From positions 510,001 through 542,000 of the forward strand of contig NZ_CP006932.1 of NCBI RefSeq assembly GCF_000582535.1: DNA of 32,000 nucleotides. Direction: 5' to 3'. Below are positions 2,993 through 19,285 of this stretch, piece after piece. This stretch comes from Candidatus Saccharimonadota bacterium. GTDB lineage: Bacteria; Bacillota_I; Bacilli_A; Mycoplasmatales; Hepatoplasmataceae. Both the position numbers and the translations under genes were made by a program. The notes under the pieces are model-generated. The model was given only the letters and a program-made list of their open reading frames with translations. It ran no database searches and was not told the DNA's origin. Positions within the stretch are counted from its first letter, which is position 1; the number at the start of each line of letters is the position of its first letter.

Positions 2993-3019
2993 GCAAAATC
3001 AATTGATTTTGCTTTTTTT
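2993..3019. terminator. Bidirectional rho-independent terminator shared by rpmB and the convergent 602-aa gene
   Basis: The stem is gcaaaatc-aatt-gattttgc (8 bp). An A-run precedes it and T7 follows. It sits directly after the rpmB stop and overlaps the minus-strand stop at 3018-3020. Confidence 0.75.
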
Positions 3020-4826
3020 ATTCATCTCTTTGAATTTCTTGTGGTAATAATGAACTATATTGATCTTCTAGATCTCCTTGTAATACGATATAAAATCCCT
3101 TACTATTTCAATATCTATAAGCATCTGATAATAAATTATCTTTATTATTAGTATAAATTGAATAAACTATGTAATAAACAATCTCTTCTCTTCCATAATT
3201 TAAACTATTTGAACCTTCATTTTCATATTGATCAAAAAGAACATCAAATAAAAGAACTGATTGATCATCTTTTGCTGAATCATAAGGTGAATAAGTTCCA
3301 TCACCATTGTCAATTACTTTAATTTGATAAAAATACTGTTGAATATTTTGATTATCCTCATGATAGTTTTTTGCAAAAGGAAAAGGAAATATCGGATAGT
3401 ATATATATGAATATCCTGTATATTTTCCAATATCAGAAGGAAGAGCACTAAGATTTTGTGAAGAAACAGTATCTTCCCCATCATCAGGAACATCATCTTC
3501 TACTTTTATCTTAACAACTGTTCCATCTGCTGTTGTTTTTCAAGGTTCATCTTCTGCTGAATAAAAATAATTAGGATTATAAATATTAAGTTTTGCAAAT
3601 TGATTACCCTTATCTAAATCATCTGTAATAAGTGAAACTAATTCTTCTCCATTATTATCGTTTACATCATATTTATAATTGTAATATTGATTAAAATCTG
3701 TAAAAATAGAAGAAACAACTAATTCTGAATTAGCAACACTTACAACCCCATTAAATCCACGTAAAGCTTCTTCATCATTTGATAAATAGCTTTTTGCATA
3801 ATCTTTATTAATTTCATCTAAAAAATTTGTTTTAGTATTATCTTCATTTACATATGTTTTATCATATATTGAATTTCAATTATCTAATGTTATTTCTGTT
3901 GTCGGTTGATTTGCTTTTGAAATATTGTCGTATTCAATATTTCAAATAAACATTGGGCGATCAAAATACATTTCTTCTGTTAAATAATAATCAAAATCAG
4001 CTTTTGAATCTTTTTGTCAAAGGTAACTATAAACGAAAAGTGCTTTTGCAATTTCAGTTTGATATTCAATTGTATCATTTAAAAATGATAATAATTGTTG
4101 ATATGAGTCAGTATCGCCATTTTCAATATAATAATTTTCAACATCTCAAACATTTTTTGGAAATATAGTAGTTACAAAATCATTTATTCCACTTATTTTA
4201 ATCATGTCGCGATATTTTGTGCTAAATGCTTCTAAATATTGATACATATCTTCACTAGTCGGTAATGTTGTATCATTAAATAATTTAATTGCTGCAAATT
4301 TATCTGTTAATTGATAATAAGTATCATAGTTGTAGCCATTTGTATTTATATATTCTGATTCAATTCACTTATTATCTTCTGTAGGATTTAAAATTGATCC
4401 TTCATTTATTGTTGTAGTATCATCAGCTTCTTTTATAAAACTTTCTCCTGTAAGAGATGATTGTAAAAATGTTTTTAAGATAATAGCAGCATTTTCCTCA
4501 GCTGCGGTATTATATGTATAAACATCAGGAGAAGAAGTATCAGTATCATCACTTCCATCATCTTCTCCTTCTTCTAGTGTATTAAAATTTGGATAAATAG
4601 AAGAATAATCATTTTCTTTTTTATATTTAACTAAGAATGTATTTAATTCTTTTTCAGAATAAACATATTCCTTATTTCCAAGATGAATTATCATATTATT
4701 ATCATTTACATTTTTTCCAAAATAAAAAGTAAAAGAAAGAATGATACTAATTAAAATTGTAATTAATACGATAAGTGTAATAATAAATTTCTTTGTTCAA
4801 AATTGTTTTTTTTCTTCTTGCTTCAT
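3018..4826 (-). CDS. Hypothetical membrane-anchored acidic surface protein (602 aa)
   Basis: ATG is at 4824-4826. The N-terminus MKQEEKKQFWTKKFIITLIVLITILISIILSFTFYFGK gives a short tail and one TM helix with no lipobox Cys. I scanned the frame from 3021 to 4364 and found no TAA/TAG, only TGA codons. TAA is at 3018-3020. The ectodomain is rich in Asp, Glu, Asn and Tyr. I recognised no family. Confidence 0.7.
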
Positions 4827-4837
4827 AATTTATTCCT

Positions 4838-7168
4838 CTAATTACTTAAATTTCCTGACTGATAAATCTGATCAATTGTTTTTAATTCAAAATCATTTCC
4901 TTCGAATGAAAAATATGAAAGTAAATTATGTAAATTAGCATTTCAATTTGCTACATCAAAATCACCTAAGTAAATATCCCCATACTTATCAAAGAAATCA
5001 TTTGATCTTGCTACTTGTGTAGTTGTTTTAGAGATATCATTTCAAAAAACTTGATTATAAAATTGTCCTAAAATCTCATTTGGATCAGCTTTAAGCTCTC
5101 AATCCAAATCTTCGCCATTTTCAAGTGCACTTTTTTCTTGATCTGTAAATTCATTTCCATCAGGATTATAAGTTTGATCTAAATAATTTAAATACTGATT
5201 AAAAATAATATCTTTTGCATTTGTAGTTAATCAAGATTGATAGCTTTCAATAATATCATATTGATATTGATAAAGTTGACTAATTGAATCAGGATTATTT
5301 TGTAATAATTTTTGATCAAGTTGATAAGATAACATTACTTGAGCATCACTTATCCCTGATTCTTCTTGATCATTAAAAACATTATCATGAACTAAATGCA
5401 TTCCATCAATTGATTGAGTAAGATAATAATCTTCTTCAATGTTTGTACTATTATCAATCTTATCATTAGTAATATTAGATTTTACATTACTAAATGTAAA
5501 ACCAGTTGTTTGATCATAATTATAATGATTAATAGTCGGAATTTGTAAATGATAAAAAATCTGTCGATCAGTATTATCAACTAAATTTGAATAATCAAAA
5601 ACTTGTGCGTAAAATCCCTTATTTACTTGAGCAACAACTTGATTACCCCCTGTTTGTCCTGTTAAATTACTAATATAAACATCTGTATATTCACCATCAA
5701 AAGTTTGATTAATATAATCATATCTTTCTTGATCAGTAGTTGGTAAACTATCATAAGTTCAAATTACATTATCATTAGGATCAATTTCTGTAGTTGCTCC
5801 ATAACCAGGAATAAAATATTGATATTTATTTAAATTAGTAATTGGAAAAGTTTCAGCAGATGGAGCAAAAATATCTTTAAAAACATCACGATACTCAAGT
5901 CCTACTTCTTCAAAAAAAGCATAATATCTACTAAACATTAAAGATGAATTATATGTATCATTATCAAAATCTTCATTAGATTGATAATTTTCTGAAATTA
6001 AATTATCATAAACTTCCATTAAAACTAATGAAACTGTTGAATTTGCAGAAACACTATCAGATAAACTTGTAACACCAGAATCAGTAAAAGTTGGTGCACT
6101 AGAATAATCAGTATTATTAAAATCTAAAAATTCTCAATCATCAATTGATGTATTATAAATATTTTGATAAGAAATAACTGCAAGATCAGCTAAAAATACT
6201 CAAACATCATCGATATTTTCAGTAGTAAGAGCAAATGATTCTGTTTTACTTGTTAACCCCTCTCGATCAGGATTTTCAAAAGTAAAAGGAATTAAAATAT
6301 CTTCATAATTAATAGGTTTATAAATTTTTTGATATAAATCAAATAAAAATTGATGATTAATTACTGTTTTATTAAGAACAGGATCATCATAAAAAATTGT
6401 CTGTTGATTAAAATCACCATTAAATCCATAATATCTTGATGATGGAGTTTCTAAAGTTGAACGATATTTTTTTGTAAGTGGATCTGTCGAATCATCAAAA
6501 TAAATATAAGTGTCTTCTGAAAGAATAGTTGAAATAGAGGATAAAAGAGATTCAGAAATTAAATTATTACGATATTGATCTTCTGTATCAAATCCTAATG
6601 ATAAAAGATTTTTATTTCACTCTTTTTTTCAATCATTTCCATATTGGTCACGATAAGTATCTTTTTCATCACTTATCTGATTATCAGCTTTATTTTCAGC
6701 ACTATCTAAATCCTTTTTAGATCCTAATCCTTTATCTATTAAAACTTTATAACCCCAAACAACAGCATTGTCTTTCAGATAATTCGTTTCATATTGTGCA
6801 GGATCATTTTGATTATCAATAATAAGCTCTTCAATTTGTTCTAATGTATAATATTCATCACCAAATTTAATACCAGATTTTTCTTCTTTATTAGATAATC
6901 CTAAACCTAATCCTAAACCTAAAGCTAGCAAGATAATAAAAATTATTAAAATTATTATTAATAATTTTAAATGTCTTCTAAATCAATTTTTTTGTTCAGA
7001 ATGATCTTTTTTATCATAAAAAGAATGATCATCCTTTTTTTCACTTTCTTTTTTTGGTTCGATGTTCTCTTTTTTTGTATTATTCTTTACTTTTGCTTGC
7101 TCATCTTTATTTTTAGGATCACTATCCTTAAAAATAAGTGAATCTTTAACTTCTCTTTGCGGCGTCAT
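4838..7168 (-). CDS. Hypothetical membrane-anchored acidic surface protein (776 aa), probable paralogue of the downstream gene
   Basis: Track ORFs 6983-7168, 6629-6931 and 5759-6019 share one frame. I checked every codon between them and down to 4841, and only TGA interrupts the frame. TAG is at 4838-4840. A 60-aa Lys/Glu/Asp-rich N-terminal tail is followed by the TM segment LLIIILIIFIIILLALGLGLGLGLS and a large acidic domain. The stop lies 11 nt upstream of the next gene's ATG. Confidence 0.7.
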
Positions 7169-8624: not shown

Positions 8625-8633
8625 TGCTATAAT
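8625..8633 (+). promoter_or_regulatory. Candidate extended -10 promoter element (TGcTATAAT)
   Basis: tgctataat lies 35 nt upstream of the ATG at 8668, and aaaggac sits just before the ATG as a weak SD. AT-rich DNA produces many chance TATAAT matches. Confidence 0.4.
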
Positions 8634-8667
8634 TTTAATTAATTTTTTCAAAAAATAAAGGACTAGT

Positions 8668-10038
8668 ATGGATAAAAAATTAGAAAGTTTAACAGTTGCT
8701 CAACTTAAAAAAGAAGCTGACCAAAAAAACATAAAATATAAATCTTCTATAAGTAAAAAAGAATTAATAAAATTACTTGAAGATAAAAAAAGACCAATAA
8801 AAAGTGGAAAAACTATTTTACCTAGAGATAAAGCAGTTGAATTAATACAAGAAATATTTAAAGATAATAATTTTGCTCCTCTAAGCTTACAACAAATTTT
8901 TAATAGTAAAAGATTATTAAAATATAAAAAACAATATAAAAATGAAGAATCTTATGAAAGTGCAATTAAATGAAACTTAGAAGTAAATTCAAAAGATTCT
9001 AAATTATGAGATCAAAAAAACACTATTTTTGAAAATAGAAATATTGGAGAAGGAATATGAGGATTAGTAGGAGATACAGTTCATACATATCAAGAATCTT
9101 CATCTGCTAAAAAAATAGATAATTCTTCAAAAGAACCAAAAAAAATTGAAAAAACAGAAGAATCAAAAAAAAGCAAAAAACCAAAAAGATTGATTTCTAA
9201 AATTAAAGCAAAAAATGCAGCTCATCTTGATCAAGGTGAAAAATTAATTGAAGGAAAATATCAATTGGTAATTAAAAACCTTAGAAAAAAATATGGTAAA
9301 ACTGAAGTTCTAAATGGAATAGATCTTAAAGTTATGCCAGGAGAAAAAGTTGCTGTTGTTGGTGCAAATGGTGCTGGAAAAAGTACATTATCTGAAATAA
9401 TTGCGCAAGTAAAAGAACCAACAAGCGGAGAACTTCTTTATTCATTCGGACATACAAAAGAAAAAATTTCAGCAAAAATTGGAATTCAATTCCAAGATTC
9501 TTCTTATCCTGATTTTTATAAAGTTAGTGATATTGTTAGATTTATAATTGATGCTTCAGATATTAAAATTTCAAATGAAGATTTAGATCATCTTTATGAA
9601 ACTTTTGATGTTAAATATCTTAAAAAAGATGTAGCAAAAGGATTATCAGGAGGACAACAACAACGTCTAAATATTCTTCTTGCAATTGTAAATAATCCTA
9701 AAATTTTAATTTTAGATGAAGTAGGAACAGGTCTTGATGTTGAATCTAGAACAAAAATTAAATCATATATTAAATCATATATTCATGAAAATGATGCAAC
9801 ATTATTATTAGTATCACATAACTCTGATGAAGTTATCGAACTTGTAGATAGAGTTGTTGTTATCCACAGTGGAAAAATATATGAAGATAGACCTTTAAAA
9901 TCAATTTTAAAAGAATGAAAACATTTTGATGATTATATGAATAATCTTTATTTAAATGTCTTCAAGAAAAATCTTGATTTAAGAGTAAATAAATCAGGTC
10001 GTCAAAAAAGAAAAGAAAAAGAAGGAGAAAAAAATTAA
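8668..10038 (+). CDS. ABC transporter ATP-binding protein with a roughly 175-aa N-terminal extension (HeH/Rho_N-like motif plus winged-helix-like module)
   Basis: ORFs 8668-8973 and 9190-9918 are in the same frame. All codons between them were checked, and only TGA occurs. The product is 456 aa. The ABC core has Walker A GANGAGKST, signature LSGGQQQRL and Walker B ILILDE. There is no in-frame ATG near the start of the ABC domain; the track's start at 9190 is a TTG with no SD. Confidence 0.7.
8797..9108 (+). repeat. Direct repeat copy 1 (about 310 bp), paired with 18543-18856
   Basis: A gapless 303-nt alignment joins 8806-9108 to 18554-18856, with roughly 25 mismatches (about 92% identity by eye). 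It encodes GKTILPRDKAVELIQEIFKDNNFAPLSLQQIFNSKRLL...NIGEGIWGLVGDTVHTY. Confidence 0.9.
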
Positions 10039-10043
10039 CTAAA

Positions 10044-10880
10044 ATGTTTGCACTTTATAAAATGCAAGCCAGAGTCTGATTTAAGAACCCTTTTTCTTAT
10101 TTCAGTTTTATATTTGCTACCTTCTTCTTGGTTGTTTTAGGAGCAATTGCTAGTGTTACTGGTACTTCAGATCAACAAACGCAATTGCTTGTTCAAACTT
10201 CTTTTGGAATGGCAATATCTGCGATGATTATATCATCAGCAAATAACTTTGGTTTTACAATCTTTAATTTAAGAGACTCTATTCTTTTAAAAAGAATTGG
10301 AGCAACAAAAATAACAAAAACACAAGTTATCTCAGAAATCGTTCTTTGAGGTGTTACAACTTTACTATTTGTTATGGTTTGAATATTCTTCTTACAATGA
10401 TTATTAGGAGCTACAGGATTTTTCGGAACATATTCAACAGGAGAAAACATTGAAACAAATTGAGCAGGAATAAAATGAGCAGGACTTATTCTTGCAATTC
10501 TTATTGGAGCTATTGTTAGTTACATTATTTCTCTATTCTTTATTTCAATTTCTCCTAATACAGATACATATAATATAATTACATTATTTTATTTCTTCTT
10601 CGCAGTGTTTTTAGGTGGAGGAGTAACAATCGCAAATCAAAGAGATTGAATGAATATAGCAGGAAAACTAACACCAATAGGTTGAAATAGAGAATTCATC
10701 GTAAGTTCAGTAAATGGATTTGATGTATTTAATTTTACAGCAGATAATATAGCTACTGCACCATTTGATGGTTTTGAAACAATCGAAGGATATAGAAGCG
10801 CATTAGACTTCTTTATGCCATTTGTATTTATGATTATTGTAATGCCATTTACCGTGAAAGCATTCAAATGAGATCAATAG
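10044..10880 (+). CDS. ABC-2-type transporter permease (278 aa)
   Basis: ATG is 5 nt after the ATPase stop. The protein is a multi-pass hydrophobic one, MFALYKMQARVWFKNPFSYFSFIFATFF..., with the loop LLKRIGATKITKTQV. It contains several TGA=Trp codons and ends in TAG at 10878-10880. Confidence 0.75.
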
Positions 10881-10898: not shown

Positions 10899-11657
10899 AT
10901 GACTGCGCTTTATAAATTAATTTTAAAAACAAATATAAAATCTCCATCATTGGCCTTTCCACTTGTTACACCAATTGTTTTTGTTTTAGTATTCATTAGT
11001 GGAACAAATGATGAAGAACTTACAACATCCTTTTTCAAGATTATTTCAATAATGTTGATGCAATCTGGAACATTTGGATTTGGATTTACAATGATTGCGC
11101 TTAAGAAATCGATTATGCTTAAGCGAATCGGAGCAACAAAAATAACAAAACCAGAAGTATTAACAGCAAGTATCCTTTATGGATTTACAATGCTTTTAAT
11201 AAGTTTAGTTTGAACAACTTCATTTACAATGATTCTTTCTGTTTCCGGATATTATCTTTCATCAACAACAGGAGAAACATTACATATTGATTTTGCTACT
11301 GTTGCTAACTGAGGATATATTGTTCTAGGAATAATTATTTCAATTTTTGTTAGTTACTCAATTGGAATGATGTTTGTTTCATTAGCAAGAACAGATGAAC
11401 AATTTGCAATGTCTGCAATGCTTTATTTCTTCTTTTCAATCTTACTTGCTGGATTATTAGTAAATAACGAAATAAGACAAGAAATTCCATTTATGGTCTG
11501 AACGGGATACTTTAATCCAACAGTATGAGCAAATCAAATTATTAACTTTGGAGTTTCAGGAGTAAACAACGAAGAATTATGATTAGAAATTGTCGTTCCA
11601 ATCTTAATGGCAATACTTGCAATCGGAGTTTCATTAAAAACATTTAAATGAGATTAA
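10899..11657 (+). CDS. ABC-2-type transporter permease, tandem paralogue (252 aa)
   Basis: The protein starts MTALYKLILKTNIKSPSLAFPLVTPIVFVL... and carries the same loop motif, MLKRIGATKITKPEV. That motif includes a 21-nt DNA identity (ggagcaacaaaaataacaaaa) with the upstream permease. TAA is at 11655-11657. Confidence 0.75.
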
Positions 11658-11671
11658 GATAAAATAATTTT

Positions 11672-11700
11672 AAGGTCAGAATTAAGTTCTGGCCTTTTTT
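11672..11700 (+). terminator. Rho-independent terminator of the ABC operon
   Basis: aaggtcagaa-ttaag-ttctggcctt forms a 10-bp stem with one G-U pair, followed by T6. It lies 15 nt after the permease stop. Confidence 0.75.
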
Positions 11701-11782: not shown

Positions 11783-11869
11783 GGAGGGGTAGCGAAGTCT
11801 GGCTAAACGCGGGTGACTGTAGATCATTTCCCTTTGGGTTCGGGGGTTCGAATCCCTCCCCCTCCACCA
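11783..11869 (+). tRNA. tRNA-Tyr (GTA), class II with long variable arm, CCA encoded
   Basis: The acceptor is GGAGGGG/CCCTCCA. The anticodon stem-loop ggtga-ctGTAga-tcatt and the T-arm ggggg-ttcgaat-ccctc are present. Length is 87 nt. Confidence 0.9.
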
Positions 11870-11874
11870 TTAAA

Positions 11875-11949
11875 TGGTCTGTAGCCAAGCGGTAAGGCAC
11901 ATGGTTTTGGTCCATGTATGCGTAGGTTCGAATCCTGCCAGACCAGCCA
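11875..11949 (+). tRNA. tRNA-Gln (TTG), CCA encoded
   Basis: The acceptor is tggtctg/cagacca. The anticodon stem-loop is catgg-ttTTGgt-ccatg and a T-loop ttcgaat is present. Length is 75 nt. Confidence 0.9.
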
Positions 11950-11954
11950 TTTAT

Positions 11955-12030
<76 letters not shown>

Positions 12031-12031
12031 C

Positions 12032-12119
12032 GCCCAGGTGGTGGAATTTGGTAGACACGAGGGACTTAAGCTCCCTTGGTCATTAGACTGTGCGGGTTCA
12101 AGTCCCGCCCTGGGCACCA
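12032..12119 (+). tRNA. tRNA-Leu (TAA), class II, CCA encoded
   Basis: The acceptor is gcccagg/cctgggc. The anticodon stem-loop is aggga-ctTAAgc-tccct. A long variable arm and the T-arm gcggg-ttcaagt-cccgc are present. Length is 88 nt. Confidence 0.9.
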
Positions 12120-12850: not shown

Positions 12851-13912
12851 ATGTTTACGATCTTAACAAATGAAACAGTAAAAAATTCTAAATCTATTTT
12901 TGCAAAAATTAGATTTTATATTTACAAAATAATTGAACCTTATCCAGAAAATAAGTTTTATGCTTATATTAGCTATTTTTATAATATCCTTACAATTATA
13001 TTTGCACTATTTGTTTTATTACCAGCATTATGATCAACAAGTGGAAATAATCCCTTTATTGATTGATTAGATGCTAATGCAATTGCTTTTTATATTGTTC
13101 TTACAATTGATTATATTCTAAGATGATTTATTTCTGATTATACACTTGGAAAAGGTTATAAATCATTTTTCTTATTTTTTGTTAGTTTTTGAGGAATAAT
13201 TGATTTTCTAGGAATTTTTCCTATTTGATTCGGAGCAAATGGATTTGCAATCTTTCTAATCTTCCGTTTATTTAAAATAATTCGTTTCTTTCCAAGAATA
13301 AACTCAGCTTTTATATTAATTAATAAAACATTATTTCGTAGATGAAAAGTCCTTACAATTGTCTTTATAAATTTTATTTTTATGATTTTTTTCGGAGCTA
13401 CATTAATCTGATTATTTGAAAATGAAACTAACCCTGATATTAATACTTTTTGAAATGCTGTATATATGATGTTTATTACGATGACGACAATCGGATTTGG
13501 TGATATTACTCCAATTACTACAGGAGGAAGAATTGTTGTTTCAATCTTCTCGTTAGTAGGTATTTCAATTATTGCAATTATTACTGCAATTGTAGTTACT
13601 AGTTTTACAGATGAATTAGAAGAAGTAAGAAGAAGAATTAATAAACAAAATAAATTATCACGAGAAAAATTATGAAAAAAATATCGTTCACTTACAAAAG
13701 AAGAAGTAATTGAATTACTTAAAAAATATAAAATCTCTTTCCCCGAAAGACAACGACATGATCAACTTGTAAATATATATATTACTTTTCTAATTAAAAA
13801 AGAAAATAAGAAAAATAAAACAGATCAAGTGGAATCAGTAAATGCTAATGAACTTCTAGATCAAGAACAAACAATTGAGATAAATAAATTAGATTCAAAT
13901 AAAGATAAATAA
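12851..13912 (+). CDS. Voltage-gated-type (6TM) potassium channel with a C-terminal HeH/Rho_N-like motif
   Basis: The gene encodes 353 aa and the frame was checked (TGA only). The selectivity filter is TTIGFGD. An S4-like segment FRLFKIIRFFPRIN has a basic residue at about every third position. The C-terminal tail is LTKEEVIELLKKYKISFPERQRHDQLVNIY. Confidence 0.8.
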
Positions 13913-13914
13913 AA

Positions 13915-14619
13915 TTAAAGAATTACAACTTTATTAGCTCTATTTTCAATTTTTATCTTTAAGTTAAATTTCTTAATAAGTCTATCTAATGTAAGGAAAA
14001 GAATAAAATTATCTTTGTATCTAAAGCAAATATCTCTTTCTCCTCGTAAAAGAATCACAAATCCATAATCATATAAAATTGCTTTTTTAATTTCATAAAA
14101 TTTTATTACTTCAATTATCTTATCTTTTTTTTGATCATAAAATACAATTTCAGAATTAGAAAAAATAAGTTCCCCTTTATTTTCTGATTGATAAATCTCA
14201 TTTTGATCTAACAAATATTTATTTACATTTTTATATAAAAAATAAGCAATTTTACTCAAGCTAATTCCTTGATAAGAAGAAGGATAAGGTGCTTCAATTG
14301 TTTTAAAAAATCTTCGATTTGTAAAATCTCTTGCAAGCATATATTGTAAATTTAAATCTTCGTAATTATAAAGTTTAAGATCTAATTTTATAATTATATG
14401 TTTCATCTTACTAAAAAAAACTTGATTATTATGATAATTTTTTTCTTTCCACTTACGAAAAAGAATTTTTTTATAACTCTCGAACAAATCATAATCAAAC
14501 TTAGATTGTATTTCTTTTATTTGCAATTTAGATAATTTATCTAAATTATCAAGATTCAATTTTTGATTAATTTTATAAAATTGATACTGAGTATTTACTT
14601 TTCCCTTAATTGTAGTCAT
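13915..14619 (-). CDS. Hypothetical protein (234 aa), last gene of the R-M operon
   Basis: This is an intact track ORF with no TGA codon. Its ATG is 13 nt downstream of the nuclease stop. I recognised no family. It contains IVFYD-x13-EIK, which resembles the nuclease's LLLYD-x9-EIK. Confidence 0.6.
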   Translation of the reverse strand: MTTIKGKVNTQYQFYKINQKLNLDNLDKLSKLQIKEIQSKFDYDLFESYKKILFRKWKEKNYHNNQVFFSKMKHIIIKLDLKLYNYEDLNLQYMLARDFTNRRFFKTIEAPYPSSYQGISLSKIAYFLYKNVNKYLLDQNEIYQSENKGELIFSNSEIVFYDQKKDKIIEVIKFYEIKKAILYDYGFVILLRGERDICFRYKDNFILFLTLDRLIKKFNLKIKIENRANKVVIL

Positions 14620-14632
14620 GTTTTTATTATAT

Positions 14633-15424
14633 TTAATTGAAGAAATTAGTTAATATATTTTCTATTTCATTTTTTAAATTATTTTTAATAATTTCATTAT
14701 TTGAAACCTTATTAAAAACTTCTTTTATATCACTAAATAAAATATTATTAGTAAATTTTATTCAAAATTCTTCTCCTCTAAGTAAATTTTTATTTTCTTC
14801 TAAATAATCATCTTTTCATCTTTTTTTATCATTAAAAAAATATAAAATTGGTTGAATTTTTTTATAATTTATTTTATTTTCTTCAAAATATCTTCTTAAA
14901 GCAAAAGTAGTTTCAAATAATTTTTTATAAATATTTTCATGCTTTCCAGTATCGTGATTATCTAAAAGTTTTATTTCAAATAAGTAATAATTGCTATTAT
15001 TATCGTACAATAGAAGATCAATATCTTTTTGTTTAATTTTTTTTGCTATATCTAATTTTTCATATTTAATATCATCTAAAAAACTTAAATTAAGATCTCT
15101 CTTATTTTTCATATAATCTTCAATCGAATCATTTTCTGCTTTTGAAATAATTCCATTTATTTTTTTACCTGATAATTTAGATAAATTATATTTTTTATCT
15201 TCTTTTACAATATCTCGTATTAATTTTTCAATAAAATTCCCAAAAGTAATACTTAAAGATTGTAAATAACTTATTAAATTTCTGTATTCAATTGGTAAAA
15301 AATGAACTTTTTCTTTATTATTTTTTATTTTTTTATTAAAATCTTTAGGATCTTTTTTTGATTTTATGATTTTATTTATATCACTTAAAATTATTTCTTC
15401 TAATTTTTCTTGATTTAAATTCAT
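14633..15424 (-). CDS. Type II restriction endonuclease candidate, PD-(D/E)xK type (263 aa), possibly R.HinfI-like
   Basis: The track ORF 14816-15424 extends through two TGA codons to TAA at 14633-14635; the frame was checked. The start lies 3 nt after the methyltransferase stop. The putative catalytic motif is DIDLLLYD...YYLFEIKLL. The 263-aa size is close to the 262 aa I recall for R.HinfI. Confidence 0.6.
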
Positions 15425-15427
15425 ATT

Positions 15428-16513
15428 TTATTTAACATCCTTTCTTATATCATCAATTGAAATATAATTATTCCCTTCCTTAATATATCAATATTTTCAA
15501 CCATTTAAATATCTACCATTTTCAAATATTTCAGTAGCTTTATGAATTGAATATTTAACATTATTTATTTTAATTTTTCCTTCTGAATTTAAATAAACTT
15601 TATCTTCTTTTAAATTGTATAAATATTTTGATTTAATTTTATTTTCTCTTATTAAATCTAAAATTTTGGGATATTTTATCTTTTCATCAAACTTCGCTTT
15701 AATATAATCAAAAAATGGGTCATTTTTTGAAATTTTATCAACATTTTTAATTCTATCATTAGCATAATTTATATATTTTTCATTATTTTCTATTCCTATA
15801 AAATTACGATGTAATTTTTTAGCAACAGCTCCTGTTGTTCCTGTTCCAAAAAAAGGATCTAAAATAACATCATTTATTTTTGTTGATGCTAAAATAATTC
15901 TTCTTAATAAATCTTCTGGTTTTTGTGTATTATGTAATTTATTACCATTATTATCTTTTAATCTTTCTTTTCCTGAACATATAGAAAATTTTCATACACT
16001 TCCCATTTGTTTTTTTTTATTTTCATTTTTCATTGTTTTATAATTAAAAGTAAATTTAGAATTTTGAGATTTTGTAAACCATATTAAATTTTCATTTGAA
16101 TTTACAAACTTTGTACCTCTAAAATTAGGAGTAGGATTCGTCTTTTCTCAAGTTATATCATTAATTATTCAAAAATTTAAATCTTGAATAATATAACCTA
16201 ATCTATAAATATTATGGAAAGTTCCCATTACTCATATTGAACCCTTATCTTTTAATATTCTTCTACATTGTGTTAATCATTTTCTAGTAAATTTATCATA
16301 TTCTTTATATGAATCAAATTTGTCCCATTCATCATCTACGCCATTATATTTATTACCATTAATTCTATAAAGAGTACCTGTTCCTGTTTGCATAAAATAA
16401 GGAGGATCAGCAAAAATTAAATCAATAGATTTAGAAGGTATTTTTTTTAATTCTTCTAAACAATTTCCTAATTTAATTTTATTTATAAATTTATCTAAAT
16501 TATCATTTTTCAT
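15428..16513 (-). CDS. Beta-class N6-adenine DNA methyltransferase of the CcrM / M.HinfI family (361 aa)
   Basis: I checked the frame from 15431 to 16276; only TGA occurs. Motif IV is IFADPPY near the N-terminus and motif I is [15 protein letters not shown] near the C-terminus, which is the beta order. Long stretches match my memory of Caulobacter CcrM: [40 protein letters not shown] and the C-terminal NGWKYWY. Confidence 0.85.
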
Positions 16514-16560
16514 CTTTTTAATTATAAAAAATAATTACTTTAAATAATTGTTTTTATATT

Positions 16561-17655
16561 TTAAATTAAATCCTTCAAATAATTATCTATTTCTATTATT
16601 TTATATGGTAACTGTTTTATTAATCCTTCTCTAAAATCTTCAATTATTTGACTTAATGAAGATTTTAAGTTATTAATTTGAAGTTCTCCGTTGGAGTAAA
16701 ATAATTTATATAAAGATTCTATTGATTCTCTTAATGAAGCATATTTTTGATTTAATCAATTTTTAAAAATAATTGTTTTATTATGATATATTCGATTTCT
16801 TAAAAATTTAATTTTTTCTAATTCATTTATAAATTCTTTTTTAATATTTACTAAATTTTTTGGATCTAATTCTTCAAAATTTAAAATTTTATTATTTACA
16901 ATTTCAAATTCTCAATGAATAATATTTTTAGTATTATTAAAAAATAGTCTCAATAAATTTGAAAAAGAAGTATCATCTAATTTTTCAATTAAATTAATAT
17001 AATCTTGAAAATTCATTTCTTCAAAAGTAATTTCTAAAAATTCATTAGATTCTTTCAAATCCTTTATAGTTGTTGGTATCATTTTTATTGATTCATGGAA
17101 AAGTGATTTTTCTTTATTCTTTTTTTCTTGCAAAATTCCAGGAAAAAAGAAAATTTTTTGGAAAGTTAAATTATTTTTTCTCATAATAGACATTAGCATA
17201 ACTCTTAAAAAATATTCAAAATTATAAATAACATCTCCTATTAATTTTCTAAAAATATCTTGCAATCTATAAAATGAATCAAAAATTTGAAAAGTTATAA
17301 TTTCTTTTTCTTCATAATTTATTTTTAAAATGTTTTCATAAATGTATTCAATAAATTTGAAACTATAAGTATTAGAAATTGCAAAAAATTGTTCTAAATA
17401 TCTATTTGTTGTGAAAGGGATATTATTTTTTAAGCAATTCAATATTTTATCTGAATTAATTTTTCTATTTTTATTAAAAAAATTTCAAATTTTTTTATAA
17501 TAAATGTTATTTTCTATATATTGAACATTTTTATTAATGTTTTTTATATTTTCTTCGTCAGCTTTTTTAAAATTATCAAAAAAAATTATTAATTCATCAA
17601 TTTTTTTTCTTTTTTTATTTGATCTAATTTCTCTATCATATCCGTTATTTTTCAT
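16561..17655 (-). CDS. Abi_2 (AbiD/AbiF-like) HEPN-type abortive-infection protein candidate (364 aa)
   Basis: ATG is at 17653-17655 and the frame was checked down to TAA at 16561-16563 (three TGA codons). The sequence KFLRNRIYHNKTI supplies an R-x4-H HEPN motif (codons 16783-16800) in the context typical of the Abi_2 family. Confidence 0.6.
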
Positions 17656-17703
17656 AAATTCATCTTTTTTTATTTATTTACAAATATTATAAATAAATAT
17701 TTA

Positions 17704-18354
17704 TTAATTATTATCTTTATATCTCCCTACCAAATAATCTATAAGTAAAATAATTATTAATAAAAATAAAAACAATCCTTCTGATCCAATTATTATATTT
17801 CGATACTGATAAAAAGTTGGATAAATTCCTGATCCTGAAATAAATATTAAAAGTAAAATAAAATAAATCGGAAATAAAAAAGCTGAATAAATTATTTTAA
17901 ATTTAAAACTAATAAGAATCGAAATAAAATATAAAAATGTGCAATTAATCATAAAATAATAAAATCATCTTTTTGTATAAGAAGTATTAAAATTAGATAA
18001 AACAAAATAAGCAACAAGATAATAAAAAATAATACTAATTAAAAGAATTACTAAACAAGAAATAATAATTGAATAATAATAACTATTTCTAAGTTTAAAA
18101 TTATTTAACTGAAACTTAAGTTTTTTTCATCTATCAATTAAAACAACTACAAAACTTATTGAAATTAAATTAATAAGCGAAAAATACATAATAATTCTTG
18201 GCGGATCTAATTTTCATGTTTCTAGATGATCTTTTACTACTTGAAAAACTGAATTTAATTCAATAAAAAAAGTAGATCATATTAAAAAAAATAAAATTAA
18301 AATTACTAGTGATTTTAAATTTCAAATTTTTCTAAGATAAAATAATAATTCCAT
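17704..18354 (-). CDS. Hypothetical multi-pass membrane protein (216 aa), first gene of the minus-strand island cluster
   Basis: ATG is at 18352-18354 and the frame was checked (TGA only). There are about six hydrophobic helices, for example LVILILFFLIWSTFFI, YFSLINLISISFVVVLI, IIISCLVILLISIIFYYLVAYFVL and FLFPIYFILLLIFISGSGI. It ends 48 nt upstream of the Abi-like gene. Confidence 0.6.
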
Positions 18355-18542
18355 AATTTATATTTTCATTTATAGTTTTATTATATTAATTACTAAAAAT
18401 ATAAATATTATTAACTATATTAGAATTATATATAATTAATTTTTTTCTTTCATTCTCAATATTTCTTATTTCCTAAAATTTGTAATATAATTAAATACAG
18501 ATAATTAAAGAGAGTAAACATAGGATTAATAAAAGGAAATTT

Positions 18543-18856
18543 AATAAAAAATGGGAAAAACTATCTTACCTAGGGATAAAGCGGTTGAATTAATACAAGA
18601 AACATTTAAGGATAACAATTTTGCTTCTCTAAGCTTACAACAAATTTTTAATAGTAAAAGATTATTACAATATAAAAGTCAATATAAAAATGAAGAATCT
18701 TACCAAAGTGCAATCAAATGAAATTTAGAAGTAAATTCAAAAGATTCTAAATTATGAGATAAAAAAAATAATATCTTTGAAAATAGAAATATTGGAGAAG
18801 GAATATGAGGAGTAGTAGGAGATACAGTTCATACATATAAGGAACCTTCATCTACT
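18543..18856 (+). repeat. Direct repeat copy 2, paired with 8797-9108
   Basis: See copy 1. Homology crosses the ATG of the HNH gene (aataaaaaATGGGaaaaact versus aataaaaAGTGGaaaaact) with a 1-nt indel just upstream. Confidence 0.9.
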
Positions 18857-19285
18857 TCTAAAACAATAACTTCTTTTAAAACAAAAAAAGCAAAAGTAAC
18901 AAAAGCAATAAAAGCAACAACAAAAATTAAAAAAGCAAAAAGCGGAAACAAAGAAACAGATCTATTAGATCTATTAAATAGTGAATTAGATGATGATTTA
19001 AAATTAATCATTACAAAAAAAATTAAATTAAATAAAGAATTAGCTTCTGAAATTAGAGCAAGAGCAAATCATAGATGTGAATATTGTGGACAAGAAACTT
19101 TTAAAAATGATCAAGATGAAGGATATCTTGAAGTTCATCATATTGATTTTCTATGTGAAGGTGGAAAAGATCAAAAAGATAATTTAATTGCTCTTTGTCC
19201 AACTTGTCACCGTAGAGCACACTCTTCTAAAGAAAGAGAAGAATTTAAAGAAGAATTAAAAAATATTGTAAATGATAAAAATTAA
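18551..19285 (+). CDS. HNH endonuclease with an N-terminal winged-helix-like (Mrr_N / HARE-HTH-like) module (244 aa)
   Basis: The full frame was checked. The C-terminus is HRCEYCGQETF...LEVHHIDFLCEGGKDQKDNLIALCPTCHRRAH, an HNH/CCHH motif. The first 101 aa are about 89% identical to residues 47-147 of the ABC ATPase. Confidence 0.8.

What the first reader, a model, noticed from the sequence alone, without database searches (positions are those of the whole stretch)
8668..9240. ABC-transporter ATPase carries an N-terminal HeH plus winged-helix-like extension
The reading frame runs without TAA/TAG from the ATG at 8668, which is preceded by TGcTATAAT and a weak SD, straight into the Walker A region. 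The ABC domain has no ATG of its own. Residues 8-38 (LTVAQLKKEADQKNIKYKSSISKKELIKLLE) match the Rho_N/HeH helix-extension-helix pattern. Residues 47-147 are the repeated module, whose ending G-x-W-G-L-V recalls the wing of Mrr_N or HARE-HTH domains. Nucleic-acid-binding-type domains on a transporter-class ATPase that has two cognate ABC-2 permeases are not an architecture I know. One caveat applies. The Lys-rich linker contains A8 and A6 runs (about 9160-9185), so a homopolymer sequencing error or slippage could create or break the fusion.
Basis: partly seen in the sequence, partly recalled or inferred. Interest (0 to 1): 0.58.

Follow-up and report, generated by a model that had tools for sequence, protein, structure and literature searches.

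The report
ABC ATPase that captured nuclease DNA-binding domain
A transporter ATPase in an isopod gut symbiont (Candidatus Hepatoplasma crinochetorum) really is one continuous protein with two DNA-binding-type add-ons: an old, conserved SAP/HeH motif, and a ~100-residue domain copied fairly recently from a neighbouring nuclease gene, a tidy but modest case of domain capture.

Summary
Under the Mollicutes code (TGA = Trp), 8668-10038 is a single 456-aa ORF. It is 100% identical to AHK22590.1 of Ca. Hepatoplasma crinochetorum Av, which is already annotated as one CDS (misnamed SsuB). At least four other assemblies keep the same frame, so the A-run frameshift worry is refuted.

The extension has two parts with different histories.
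- **HeH/SAP motif (res 5-39).** It is ancestral. Orthologues in the same ATPase + two ABC-2 permease operon carry it at the N-terminus (336-340 aa, Pfam up to 31.9 bits), at the C-terminus (323-329 aa, up to 40.6 bits), or as Rho_N. Most other orthologues have basic tails instead.
- **Residues ~40-170.** This is a lineage-specific in-frame insertion copied from the 5' end of the HNH nuclease gene at 18551-19285. The copy still contains that gene's Shine-Dalgarno sequence and a start codon disabled by a 1-nt deletion, all now read as linker codons. It arose once. It evolves under relaxed but apparently non-neutral constraint (dN/dS 0.31 vs 0.03 in the donor).

A winged-helix fold for the module is plausible but not proven. 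It is not a detectable Mrr_N or HARE-HTH member. Nucleic-acid binding is inferred, not shown. I rate this a new variant of a known kind, of moderate interest.

The parts
8625..8633 (+). Extended -10-like element TGCTATAAT upstream of the ATPase gene
   Evidence: Read. A TGn + -10-like element (TGCTATAAT here; TGTTAAAAT/TGGTAAAAT in the orthologues) is conserved at the same place upstream of the orthologues in L002-L005. The consensus promoter scan is uninformative in this AT-rich DNA.
8657..8662 (+). Shine-Dalgarno-like AAAGGA, 5 nt before the ATG at 8668
   Evidence: conserved in the orthologues.
8668..10038 (+). Single 456-aa ORF under code 4: HeH + captured module + Lys-rich linker + ABC nucleotide-binding domain + basic C-tail. 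Equals AHK22590.1 / WP_025208878.1.
8680..8784 (+). HeH/SAP-type helix-extension-helix motif (res 5-39)
   Evidence: Pfam HeH 25.1-26.7 bits, below the gathering score of 28.9. Homologous motifs in orthologues score 31.9-40.6 bits. A profile of ten orthologue motifs hits PDB 2OUT at E 1.6e-8 and the Tho1 SAP domain at 1.7e-5.
8786..8805 (+). Former 5'UTR of the HNH gene (SD AAAGGA -> AAAAGA, spacer, ex-start codon ATG -> AGT after loss of 1 nt), now read as codons K-R-P-I-K-S
   Evidence: In L052/L053 the homology runs at least 17 nt upstream of the HNH ATG in the local alignment and about 20 nt in the upstream sequences printed, with a single 1-nt gap at ATGGGA.
8806..9098 (+). Captured ~98-residue module (res 47-144), probably a winged-helix-like DNA-binding domain, 92% nt identical to the donor
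   Evidence: AF2 model pLDDT 74, pTM 0.67. Foldseek top hits are winged helices but all have E>0.6. Pfam Forkhead E 0.013. PDB FOXO4 E 0.1.
9099..9261 (+). Lys-rich low-complexity linker. Its first part (to about 9150-9188) derives from the HNH linker, and the ancestral linker resumes near KKPKRLIS (about 9175). It contains the A8 and A6 runs.
   Evidence: and comparison with the orthologues. This is the fastest-evolving part: 10 of the 13 strain differences fall at res 151-186.
9262..9927 (+). ABC nucleotide-binding domain with Walker A GANGAGKST, Q-loop, LSGGQQQR signature, Walker B ILILDE and H-switch SHN
   Evidence: Pfam ABC_tran 96 bits, res 215-351. Best NCBIfam match is the DrrA subfamily, below cutoff. 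Motifs read.
9928..10035 (+). Conserved C-terminal helix (WKHFDDYMNNLYLNVFKKNLDLRVNKSGR) plus basic tail
   Evidence: Conserved across the orthologues.
10044..10880 (+). ABC-2 permease 1 (278 aa)
   Evidence: Weak Pfam ABC2_membrane hit, E 1e-3. Synteny.
10899..11657 (+). ABC-2 permease 2 (252 aa)
   Evidence: Pfam ABC2_membrane 31.7 bits, above the gathering score of 26.9.
11672..11696 (+). Terminator-like hairpin + T-run closing the three-gene operon
18551..19285 (+). Donor gene: 244-aa protein made of the N-terminal module, a Lys-rich linker and a C-terminal HNH nuclease domain, lying at the rpoC-proximal edge of a variable defence island
   Evidence: Pfam HNH 46.7 bits. PADLOC type IV methyl-directed restriction enzyme 5.8e-14. 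Orthologues P0001-P0004.
18534..18942 (+). Donor segment (5'UTR + module + start of linker) homologous to 8786-9188
   Evidence: The 18534 start is extrapolated from the L052/L053 pair; the Av-Av local alignment itself starts at 18543.

Best explanation
The gene encodes the ATPase subunit of a three-gene ABC-2-type (DrrA-like, exporter-class) transporter of Candidatus Hepatoplasma crinochetorum. It is translated from the ATG at 8668 as one 456-aa chimeric protein.

**Shown**
1. The N-terminal SAP/HeH motif is an ancestral, selected appendage of this orthologous ATPase in Hepatoplasma-like Mollicutes. Orthologues carry it on a Lys-rich tether at either the N- or the C-terminus. Where it is missing, most carry other basic tails (histone-H1-like AKK repeats, K/R/E tails), though a few instead have long acidic N-termini.
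2. In the ancestor of the Av/HCTKY/L052 lineage, a segment of about 370-400 nt of the nearby HNH nuclease gene was duplicated into the A-rich linker between HeH and the ATPase domain. The segment comprised the last ~17-20 nt of the 5'UTR including the SD, the start codon, the ~100-residue N-terminal domain and the start of the linker. A 1-nt loss in ATGGGA put it in frame, so former UTR is now coding.
3. The event happened once, and the copies have since diverged independently.

**Inferred**
- The captured module is a winged-helix-like DNA-recognition domain of a type IV-like HNH restriction nuclease.
- In the ATPase it sits next to HeH on a flexible basic tether and adds to a pre-existing capacity to bind nucleic acid (or another polyanion) at the cytoplasmic face of the transporter. 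That could tether the transporter to nucleoid DNA or RNA, or modulate it.
- The ATPase dimer itself drives the two-permease ABC-2 heterodimer in the usual way.
For: **ORF and identity**
-.
- Same frame in five other assemblies.

**Orthologue architectures**
- HeH at the N-terminus in P0014, P0015, L003-L005 (336-340 aa, no module).
- The same motif (LTVKEIKEVLTKKNIEFKSSARKQELIDLL) at the C-terminus in P0016, P0018, P0020, P0021, scoring 34-41 bits.
- Rho_N at the N-terminus in P0078 and P0079 (30-36 bits).
- The operon of ATPase + two ABC-2 permeases, and the PGI neighbour, are kept.
- Basic N- or C-extensions occur in most of ~70 orthologues.
- The HeH profile matches solved SAP/HeH domains.

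**Origin of the module**
- 300-nt repeat at 92% identity.
- The HNH gene with the module exists in genomes whose ATPase lacks it.
- UTR/SD remnant and 1-nt gap at the start codon.
- In the NJ tree the two ABC copies are sister to the three HNH copies of the same lineage, with other species' HNH as outgroup.

**Constraint**
- dN/dS of the module is 0.31 in the ATPase against 0.03 in HNH (Fisher p 0.038).
- Among three strains there are no amino-acid changes in the module but 10 in the adjacent 36-residue linker.

**Fold**
- (H-S-H-H-S-S topology, pLDDT 74).

**Donor is restriction-like**
-.
Against: - No experiment or expression data exist, and the organism is uncultured.
- Nucleic-acid binding by HeH, by the module or by the basic tails is inferred from family resemblance only.
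- The winged-helix assignment never reaches significance: Foldseek E>0.6, Pfam Forkhead E 0.013, PDB E 0.1.
- The module's dN/dS of 0.31 rests on 12 substitutions and is not significantly below 1 (binomial p 0.058). It is about ten times the donor's value, so much of the original constraint is gone.
- In-frame maintenance by itself says nothing. Any frameshift or stop in the insert would also destroy the downstream ATPase, which has no start codon of its own.
- Lys-rich tails are common by-products of extreme AT bias (24% GC), so part of the 'basic appendage' pattern may be compositional.
Confidence: 0.75

Rival explanations
1. Neutral passenger. The captured module is a tolerated insertion in an already disordered linker. 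It has no function of its own in the ATPase and stays open only because a frameshift or stop would kill the essential downstream ATPase domain. The HeH is still ancestral.
For: - dN/dS rose about tenfold relative to the donor copy (0.31 vs 0.03).
- Neutrality is not formally rejected (p 0.058).
- The closest sister lineages function without the module.
- The start codon and SD are decaying.
- The ATPase has no in-frame ATG of its own.
Against: - There are no indels and no loss of core or signature residues (three Trp, G-E-G-I-W-G) across Av/L052 divergence (dS ~0.1-0.25), while the adjoining linker changed by substitutions and a 2-residue length change.
- Three strains differ at 10 linker positions and at none in the module.
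- dN/dS is still well below 1.
Confidence: 0.3
2. Artefact. The fusion is produced by a homopolymer sequencing error, by a chimeric assembly across the 300-nt repeat, or by use of the wrong genetic code. In reality there are two or more separate genes.
For: - Many A6-A8 runs lie in the linker.
- One metagenome contig (L001) breaks inside the repeat.
- Under table 11 the ORF is cut at TGA, and public gene calls of 101 aa and 56 aa exist (P0010, P0009).
Against: - The 456-aa ORF is identical or near-identical in two complete genomes (Av 657,101 bp; HCTKY 643,039 bp) and on an ENA contig.
- L001 matches through all the A-runs.
- The 92%-identical L052 keeps the frame (454 aa) on a contig spanning PGI-ATPase-permeases.
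- Insert-free orthologues have HeH fused directly.
- TGA aligns with conserved Trp.
Confidence: 0.02
3. The appendages are not nucleic-acid binders. The HeH, the basic tails and the module act as protein-protein or membrane (anionic lipid) interaction elements, or as regulatory or auto-inhibitory tails of the ATPase. This would be comparable to the C-terminal regulatory domains of MalK or MetN.
For: - Appendage type and position vary greatly among orthologues, and the only common denominator is net positive charge.
- A few orthologues have long acidic N-termini instead (P0073, P0076, P0082, P0083).
- The ATPase sits at the anionic membrane surface (general knowledge).
Against: - The folded elements that recur (HeH/SAP, Rho_N, histone-H1-like repeats, an HhH-like GIGPK motif in P0022, and a nuclease's N-terminal domain) are all of types typically associated with nucleic acids.
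- Nothing here tests lipid binding.
Confidence: 0.2

Closest known systems
ABC-2 / DrrA-type transporter ATPases (Pfam PF00005 with ABC2_membrane permeases)
   Same: The full set of nucleotide-binding-domain motifs is present. The best NCBIfam match is the DrrA subfamily. The operon holds two ABC-2 permeases and no solute-binding protein.
   Different: Typical members are about 230-310 aa without nucleic-acid-type domains. This one has a 200-residue N-terminal extension with HeH + a captured nuclease domain. Scores are below every NCBIfam equivalog cutoff, including SsuB, the name it carries in GenBank (116.5 bits vs 395).
SAP / HeH / LEM / Rho_N helix-extension-helix motifs (PF02037, PF12949, PF07498), e.g. 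yeast Tho1 SAP, Mu-like prophage FluMu gp35 C-terminus (PDB 2OUT), Rho N-terminus, and the inner-nuclear-membrane HeH proteins Heh1/Heh2
   Same: A ~35-residue two-helix motif with the L-T-V-x-x-L-K...K-x-E-L-I-x-L-L pattern. There are significant profile matches to solved SAP/HeH domains. Like Heh1/Heh2 and LEM proteins, it is attached to a membrane-bound assembly by a basic linker (own knowledge).
   Different: Here it is attached to a bacterial transporter ATPase, and it switches between the N- and C-terminus among orthologues. Binding to DNA or RNA is untested.
Type IV / McrA-like HNH restriction nucleases with an N-terminal DNA-recognition domain
   Same: The donor gene has this layout of N-terminal domain, linker and C-terminal HNH. 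It matches PADLOC type IV methyl-directed restriction enzyme models and lies at the edge of a variable defence island next to a HinfI-like R-M pair.
   Different: The N-terminal module matches no Pfam family. Its relatives are very few: four Hepatoplasma HNH proteins, small standalone proteins P0005/P0006/P0008 and P0011. In the ATPase gene only the recognition module was copied, without the nuclease.
   Same: The predicted order is H1-strand-H2-H3-hairpin, ending in G-x-G-I-W-G. There is weak sequence similarity to forkhead H1-H3 (LI..A...L.L..IY...W.NSIRHNL). The top Foldseek hits are H1.0, Fkh1, DAF-16, FoxO1, Fur and Stn1 winged helices.
   Different: No match reaches significance. There is no Pfam hit to Mrr_N or HARE-HTH at E<=10. 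The wing region is modelled with low confidence.
ABC proteins that act on nucleic acids or carry regulatory domains (UvrA, ABC-F, MalK/MetN C-terminal domains)
   Same: All have an ABC ATPase core plus accessory domains (own knowledge).
   Different: UvrA and ABC-F lack permease partners and insert their domains within or between tandem nucleotide-binding domains. MalK and MetN domains bind small ligands or regulators. Here a transporter-class ATPase with cognate permeases carries terminal DNA-binding-type modules.

Membership tests
ABC transporter nucleotide-binding domain (PF00005) | Pfam ABC_tran above the gathering score, with Walker A, Q-loop, LSGGQ signature, Walker B and H-switch | tested here: met
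   96 bits vs 25. GANGAGKST, GIQFQD, LSGGQQQR, ILILDE and VSHN read.
ABC-2 type transporter system | Adjacent ABC2_membrane permease gene(s) in the same operon | tested here: met
   Permease 2 scores 31.7 bits vs 26.9. Permease 1 is weak (E 1e-3). The same gene order occurs in the orthologous loci. A terminator follows permease 2.
SsuB, aliphatic sulfonate importer ATPase (the GenBank name) | NCBIfam equivalog score above cutoff, with SsuA/SsuC partners | tested here: not met
   NF008420 scores 116.5 bits vs a cutoff of 395. The partners are ABC-2 permeases, and there is no binding-protein gene in the operon.
HeH/SAP/Rho_N helix-extension-helix motif | Pfam HeH (PF12949) or Rho_N (PF07498) at or above the gathering score | tested here: inconclusive
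   The window protein scores 25.1-26.7 bits vs 28.9. Homologous motifs of orthologues pass: 31.9, 40.6, 37.0 and 34.4 bits for HeH, and 36.1 and 30.0 bits for Rho_N.
HeH/SAP/Rho_N helix-extension-helix motif | Sequence relationship to solved SAP/HeH domains | tested here: met
   The profile of 10 orthologue motifs (A5) hits 2OUT_A at E 1.6e-8, Tho1 SAP at 1.7e-5, Ku70 SAP at 0.023 and Rho at 0.33.
HeH/SAP/Rho_N helix-extension-helix motif | Binds DNA or RNA | not testable with these tools
   Needs EMSA or a similar assay.
Mrr_N (PF14338) / HARE-HTH (PF05066) | Detectable sequence membership | tested here: not met
   No Pfam hit at E<=10 for any of 5 module sequences. hhalign of the module profile against E. 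coli Mrr N-terminus gives P 0.6, and against B. subtilis RpoE N-terminus P 0.04.
Winged helix fold (forkhead/H1-like) | H1-S1-H2-H3-S2-S3 topology with significant structural or profile match | tested here: inconclusive
HNH endonuclease (donor gene 18551-19285) | Pfam HNH above the gathering score with the Cys/His motif | tested here: met
   46.7 bits vs 21.4, res 176-225, CEYCG...HHIDF...CPTCHRRAH. PADLOC mREase_IV 5.8e-14.

The most novel reading that the evidence does not exclude
The recurring HeH/SAP, Rho_N, histone-H1-like, HhH-like and (here) nuclease-derived winged-helix appendages mean that this ABC-2 transporter of Hepatoplasma-like Mollicutes is physically coupled to nucleic acid. 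It would either be a membrane anchor for the nucleoid, a bacterial analogue of HeH/LEM inner-nuclear-membrane proteins, or a transporter whose activity or substrate is linked to DNA/RNA. Either would be a functional class of transporter-type ABC system not described so far.
Probability: 0.15. Interest if true: 0.7.

Novelty: new variant of a known kind. Interest (0 to 1): 0.4.

Why it matters
There are three reasons, all modest.

1. **A dated example of bacterial domain accretion.** The donor gene, the recipient gene, the insert-free sister alleles and the junctions are all available. They show a 5'UTR with its Shine-Dalgarno sequence and a disabled start codon converted into coding linker. 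That is useful for understanding how multi-domain proteins arise in tiny, AT-rich genomes.

2. **An unnoticed conserved association.** A SAP/HeH motif, or other basic nucleic-acid-type tails, goes with one particular ABC-2 transporter ATPase across arthropod-associated Mollicutes, and the motif switches termini. That points to a selected, untested function at the membrane-nucleoid interface.

3. **Annotation corrections.** The GenBank name 'SsuB' is unsupported. Several public gene calls of this locus are truncated because TGA was read as stop.

Tried and rejected
- **Table-11 ORF list.** Misleading for this organism, so it was replaced by table-4 translation in Python.
- **Word-indexed search with the N-terminal 193 aa.** It found only the four HNH proteins. 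It missed the fusion itself and the HeH orthologues, which appeared only with the full-length query.
- **Exhaustive HMMER search of 1.84 billion representatives with the module profile.** Only two further true relatives were found (P0005, P0006), plus one spurious repeat protein (P0007). The family is very small, so no deep alignment was possible.
- **Mrr_N and HARE-HTH membership.** Rejected.
- **Ongoing gene conversion between the two module copies.** Rejected, because each ABC copy is no closer to its own genome's HNH copy than to the other genome's (20-22 differences either way).
- **Internal translation start at the remnant SD.** Rejected, because there is no in-frame ATG/GTG/TTG after it. 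The GTG at 8804 is out of frame.
- **Promoter consensus scan.** No better than shuffles in this AT-rich DNA.
- **Literature searches for HeH + ABC transporter.** Nothing relevant was found. The Hepatoplasmataceae genome paper does not discuss this protein.
Full report
**Source and genetic code.** The window has 24% G+C. The gene order (PGI, ABC operon, tRNA cluster, rpoC/rpoB, L7/L12, L10, L1, L11, NusG) and the in-frame TGA codons show a Mollicute that reads TGA as Trp. The ORF tool works with table 11 and splits the gene. Translated with table 4, 8668-10038 is a single 456-aa ORF. All four of its Trp codons are TGA.

A database search returned a 100% identical 456-aa protein, AHK22590.1 / WP_025208878.1 of Candidatus Hepatoplasma crinochetorum Av (657,101-bp genome). 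It is annotated there as 'Aliphatic sulfonates import ATP-binding protein SsuB'. So the fused CDS is already in public annotation, under a name the evidence does not support. The SsuB equivalog scores 116.5 bits against a cutoff of 395, and the partner genes are ABC-2 permeases.

**Checking the observation.**
- TGCTATAAT lies at 8625-8633 and AAAGGA at 8657-8662. The TGn + -10-like element (TGCTATAAT here; TGTTAAAAT/TGGTAAAAT in the orthologues) and the AAAGGA are conserved upstream of four orthologues.
- There is no in-frame ATG between codons 2 and 219.
- Pfam HeH matches res 5-39 at 25.1 bits, just under the gathering score of 28.9.
- ABC_tran covers res 215-351 at 96 bits.
- A 300-nt direct repeat, 8799-9098 versus 18547-18846, is 92% identical.
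- The A8 and A6 runs are at 9165-9180.
- Two ABC-2 permease genes and a terminator-like hairpin follow.

**Is the fusion an artefact?** No.
- Two further 456-aa versions exist: BDV03173.1 from the complete HCTKY MAG, and an ENA contig.
- A metagenome contig of another strain (L001) differs at 3 of 1089 nt and is identical through all A-runs.
- A more divergent relative (L052, 92% protein identity) keeps the frame as a 454-aa ORF on a contig running from PGI through both permeases.
- L001 ends inside the repeat, which is what a short-read assembler does at a 300-nt repeat. It is not evidence against the structure.

**Two parts, two histories.** The orthologue survey separates the extension into two pieces.

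In the closest insert-free relatives the ATPase at the same position, between PGI and the two permeases, is 336-340 aa. These are Ca. H. scabrum, Ca. H. crinochetorum Ps and two metagenome contigs. Their layout is the same HeH motif, about 40 residues of basic linker, then the ATPase domain, with no ~100-residue module.

Further out, proteins of 323-329 aa with 72-75% identity in the ATPase domain start directly with the ATPase. They carry a very similar motif at the extreme C-terminus (LTVKEIKEVLTKKNIEFKSSARKQELIDLL, against LTVQQLKDELKKQNIKFKSSNNKKELISLL), scoring 34-41 bits for Pfam HeH. One of them sits in an ATPase + two ABC-2 permease operon.

At 53% identity, still next to PGI, the N-terminus is a Rho_N-type motif at 30-36 bits.

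Most other orthologues lack HeH but have strongly basic N- and/or C-terminal extensions. These include histone-H1-like AKK repeats and, in one case, an HhH-like GIGPK motif. A few have long acidic N-termini.

A profile of ten of the HeH motifs matches solved SAP/HeH domains: FluMu gp35 C-terminus (2OUT) at E 1.6e-8 and yeast Tho1 SAP at 1.7e-5. The HeH-ATPase association is therefore real, old within this clade, and positionally plastic. That argues for selection on having such a motif tethered to this ATPase.

**Origin of the module.** The module is the N-terminal domain of the 244-aa protein encoded at 18551-19285. That protein's C-terminus is an HNH nuclease (Pfam 46.7 bits), matching PADLOC type IV restriction models at 5.8e-14. 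The HNH gene, with the module, is present in genomes whose ATPase lacks the module (L002, L003). So the ATPase was the recipient.

The junction proves it. In the L052/L053 pair the homology continues about 20 nt upstream of the HNH start codon, through its Shine-Dalgarno AAAGGA and spacer. There is a single 1-nt gap at ATGGGA (AATGGA in L052, AGTGGA in the window). In the HNH frame this upstream stretch contains TAA TAA. The 1-nt loss shifts it into the frame of the HeH, so former UTR is now read as K-K-G/R-S/P-I-K-N/S.

On the 3' side, homology fades within the Lys-rich HNH linker (to about 9150-9188). The ancestral ATPase linker resumes at KKPKRLIS, compared with KKSPKRLIA and KKSSKRLF in the sister species. 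Both breakpoints lie in A-rich sequence. This fits illegitimate recombination at microhomology, which is my inference.

**Timing and number of events.** Over 297 nt, the two ABC copies (Av, L052) differ by 12 nt and form a clade. That clade is sister to the three HNH copies of the same lineage (20-22 differences). The HNH genes of the other species are the outgroup (40-45 differences). This indicates one event, after the split from the insert-free species and before the Av/L052 split, with no sign of later gene conversion.

**Is the captured module still constrained?** Nei-Gojobori estimates under code 4, Av versus L052, are:

| Region | dN/dS | Counts |
|---|---|---|
| Module in the ATPase | 0.31 | 7 nonsynonymous, 5 synonymous |
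| Same module in the HNH gene | 0.03 | 2 nonsynonymous, 12 synonymous |
| ATPase domain | 0.06 | |
| HeH | 0.23 | |

The two module values differ at Fisher p 0.038. Against strict neutrality the ATPase copy gives p 0.058.

Among the three 456-aa strains, all 13 amino-acid differences lie at the 5' junction (res 43-46) or in the linker (res 151-186). None falls in the HeH, the module or the ATPase domain.

So constraint is clearly relaxed relative to the donor, but the module is not decaying like the neighbouring linker. The open frame itself is uninformative, because the ATPase depends on the upstream ATG.

**Fold of the module.** It matches no Pfam family. Only Forkhead appears, at E 0.013 in four of five sequences.

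An exhaustive HMMER search of 1.84 billion representatives, plus a profile search of the 5.8-billion set, found only a handful of relatives. These are small standalone proteins of 86-92 aa and one 162-aa protein.

AlphaFold2 with 4 and then 10 sequences gave pLDDT 65 and 74 (pTM 0.61 and 0.67). The predicted order is helix, short strand, helix, long helix, then a poorly resolved hairpin.

Foldseek against the PDB lists linker histone H1.0, Fkh1, DAF-16, FoxO1, FOXN1, Fur and Stn1 winged helices at the top. All have E 0.66-5 and TM 0.4-0.5. A PDB sequence-profile search gives FOXO4 at E 0.1.

Verdict: winged-helix-like is the best guess, closest to forkhead/H1-type. It is not a demonstrable Mrr_N or HARE-HTH member.

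**How it most likely works.**
- *Shown:* the ATPase has all catalytic motifs and sits in a three-gene ABC-2 operon. It carries an ancestral HeH on a basic tether, and the Av lineage added a nuclease's N-terminal domain.
- *Inferred:* the ATPase dimer drives the permease heterodimer. The tethered HeH, and now the captured module, bind nucleic acid or another polyanion on the cytoplasmic side, localising or modulating the transporter.

The alternatives cannot be excluded with sequence data. One is that the module is a neutral passenger. The other is that the tails bind membrane or protein partners. Both are listed as rivals.

**Novelty.** The CDS is known, and its parts belong to known kinds. 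I found no description, in the papers searched, of a conserved HeH/SAP-ABC-2 ATPase association with terminal switching. The same holds for the documented capture of a nuclease DNA-binding domain together with its UTR. I rate it a new variant of a known kind, of moderate interest.

Noticed in passing
window 13915-19285, compared with L001 4969-9243, L002 6000-10756 and L003 10001-13895: The stretch between the ion-channel gene and rpoC is a strain-variable defence island. The window and L052 carry a HinfI-like restriction enzyme + N6/N4 methyltransferase pair (14633-16513). L001, the same species at ~99.7% identity in the ATPase/permease genes compared (4 differences in 2,708 nt), carries a GmrSD_N protein and a second HNH protein instead. 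L002 has both GmrSD_N and the HinfI-like pair. In L003 the module-HNH gene sits at a different position.
   Followed up: partly
window 12851-13912 (+), C-terminal tail about res 283-312: The voltage-gated-type K+ channel homologue (Pfam Ion_trans, Ion_trans_2) has a cytoplasmic tail, SLTKEEVIELLKKYKISFPERQRHDQLVN, that resembles the HeH motif of the ATPase. hhalign against the HeH profile gives P 1.8e-4 and probability 48%, but there is no Pfam hit. If real, a second membrane protein of this genome carries a HeH-type tail.
   Followed up: partly
window 8668-8973 and 18551-18721: Public protein sets contain truncated gene calls of both module genes that end at the first TGA: P0010 (101 aa, HeH + half module, from ERR1051325) and P0009 (56 aa, JGI). 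The wrong genetic code was applied to Hepatoplasma reads in some metagenome pipelines.
   Followed up: yes
window 8668-10038: The GenBank product name 'Aliphatic sulfonates import ATP-binding protein SsuB' is unsupported. The score is far below the equivalog cutoff, the partners are ABC-2 permeases, and there is no binding protein.
   Followed up: yes
window 11783-12119 (+): A cluster of four tRNA genes (Tyr-GTA, Gln-TTG, Lys-TTT, Leu-TAA) lies directly after the ABC operon terminator. The table-11 ORFs listed there are spurious.
   Followed up: yes
window 16561-17655 (-) and 17704-18354 (-): Two genes inside the defence island have no Pfam or PADLOC match. One is a 364-aa soluble protein containing KFLRNRIYHN, which is reminiscent of the Abi_2 RNxxxH motif from memory and was not tested further. 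The other is a 216-aa multi-pass membrane protein.
   Followed up: partly
window 3018-7168 (-): Two large adjacent genes (602 aa and 776 aa) each have one N-terminal transmembrane segment and D/N/E/Y-rich bodies. They were not run through Pfam here, but their L003 counterparts have no precomputed Pfam hit. They are conserved upstream of PGI in L003 and L052 and are presumably surface proteins.
   Followed up: no
P0011 (162 aa, Logan contig) and P0006/P0008 (92 aa; L051 5001-5279): Outside Hepatoplasma the module occurs as a small standalone protein, found on contigs in 132 index blocks of the collection (24 read, showing the same neighbourhood), next to tyrosyl-tRNA synthetase in the one place shown (L051). 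It also occurs once fused to a different C-terminal domain (...GTWGLQGII...). The family is unnamed and very sparsely populated.
   Followed up: partly
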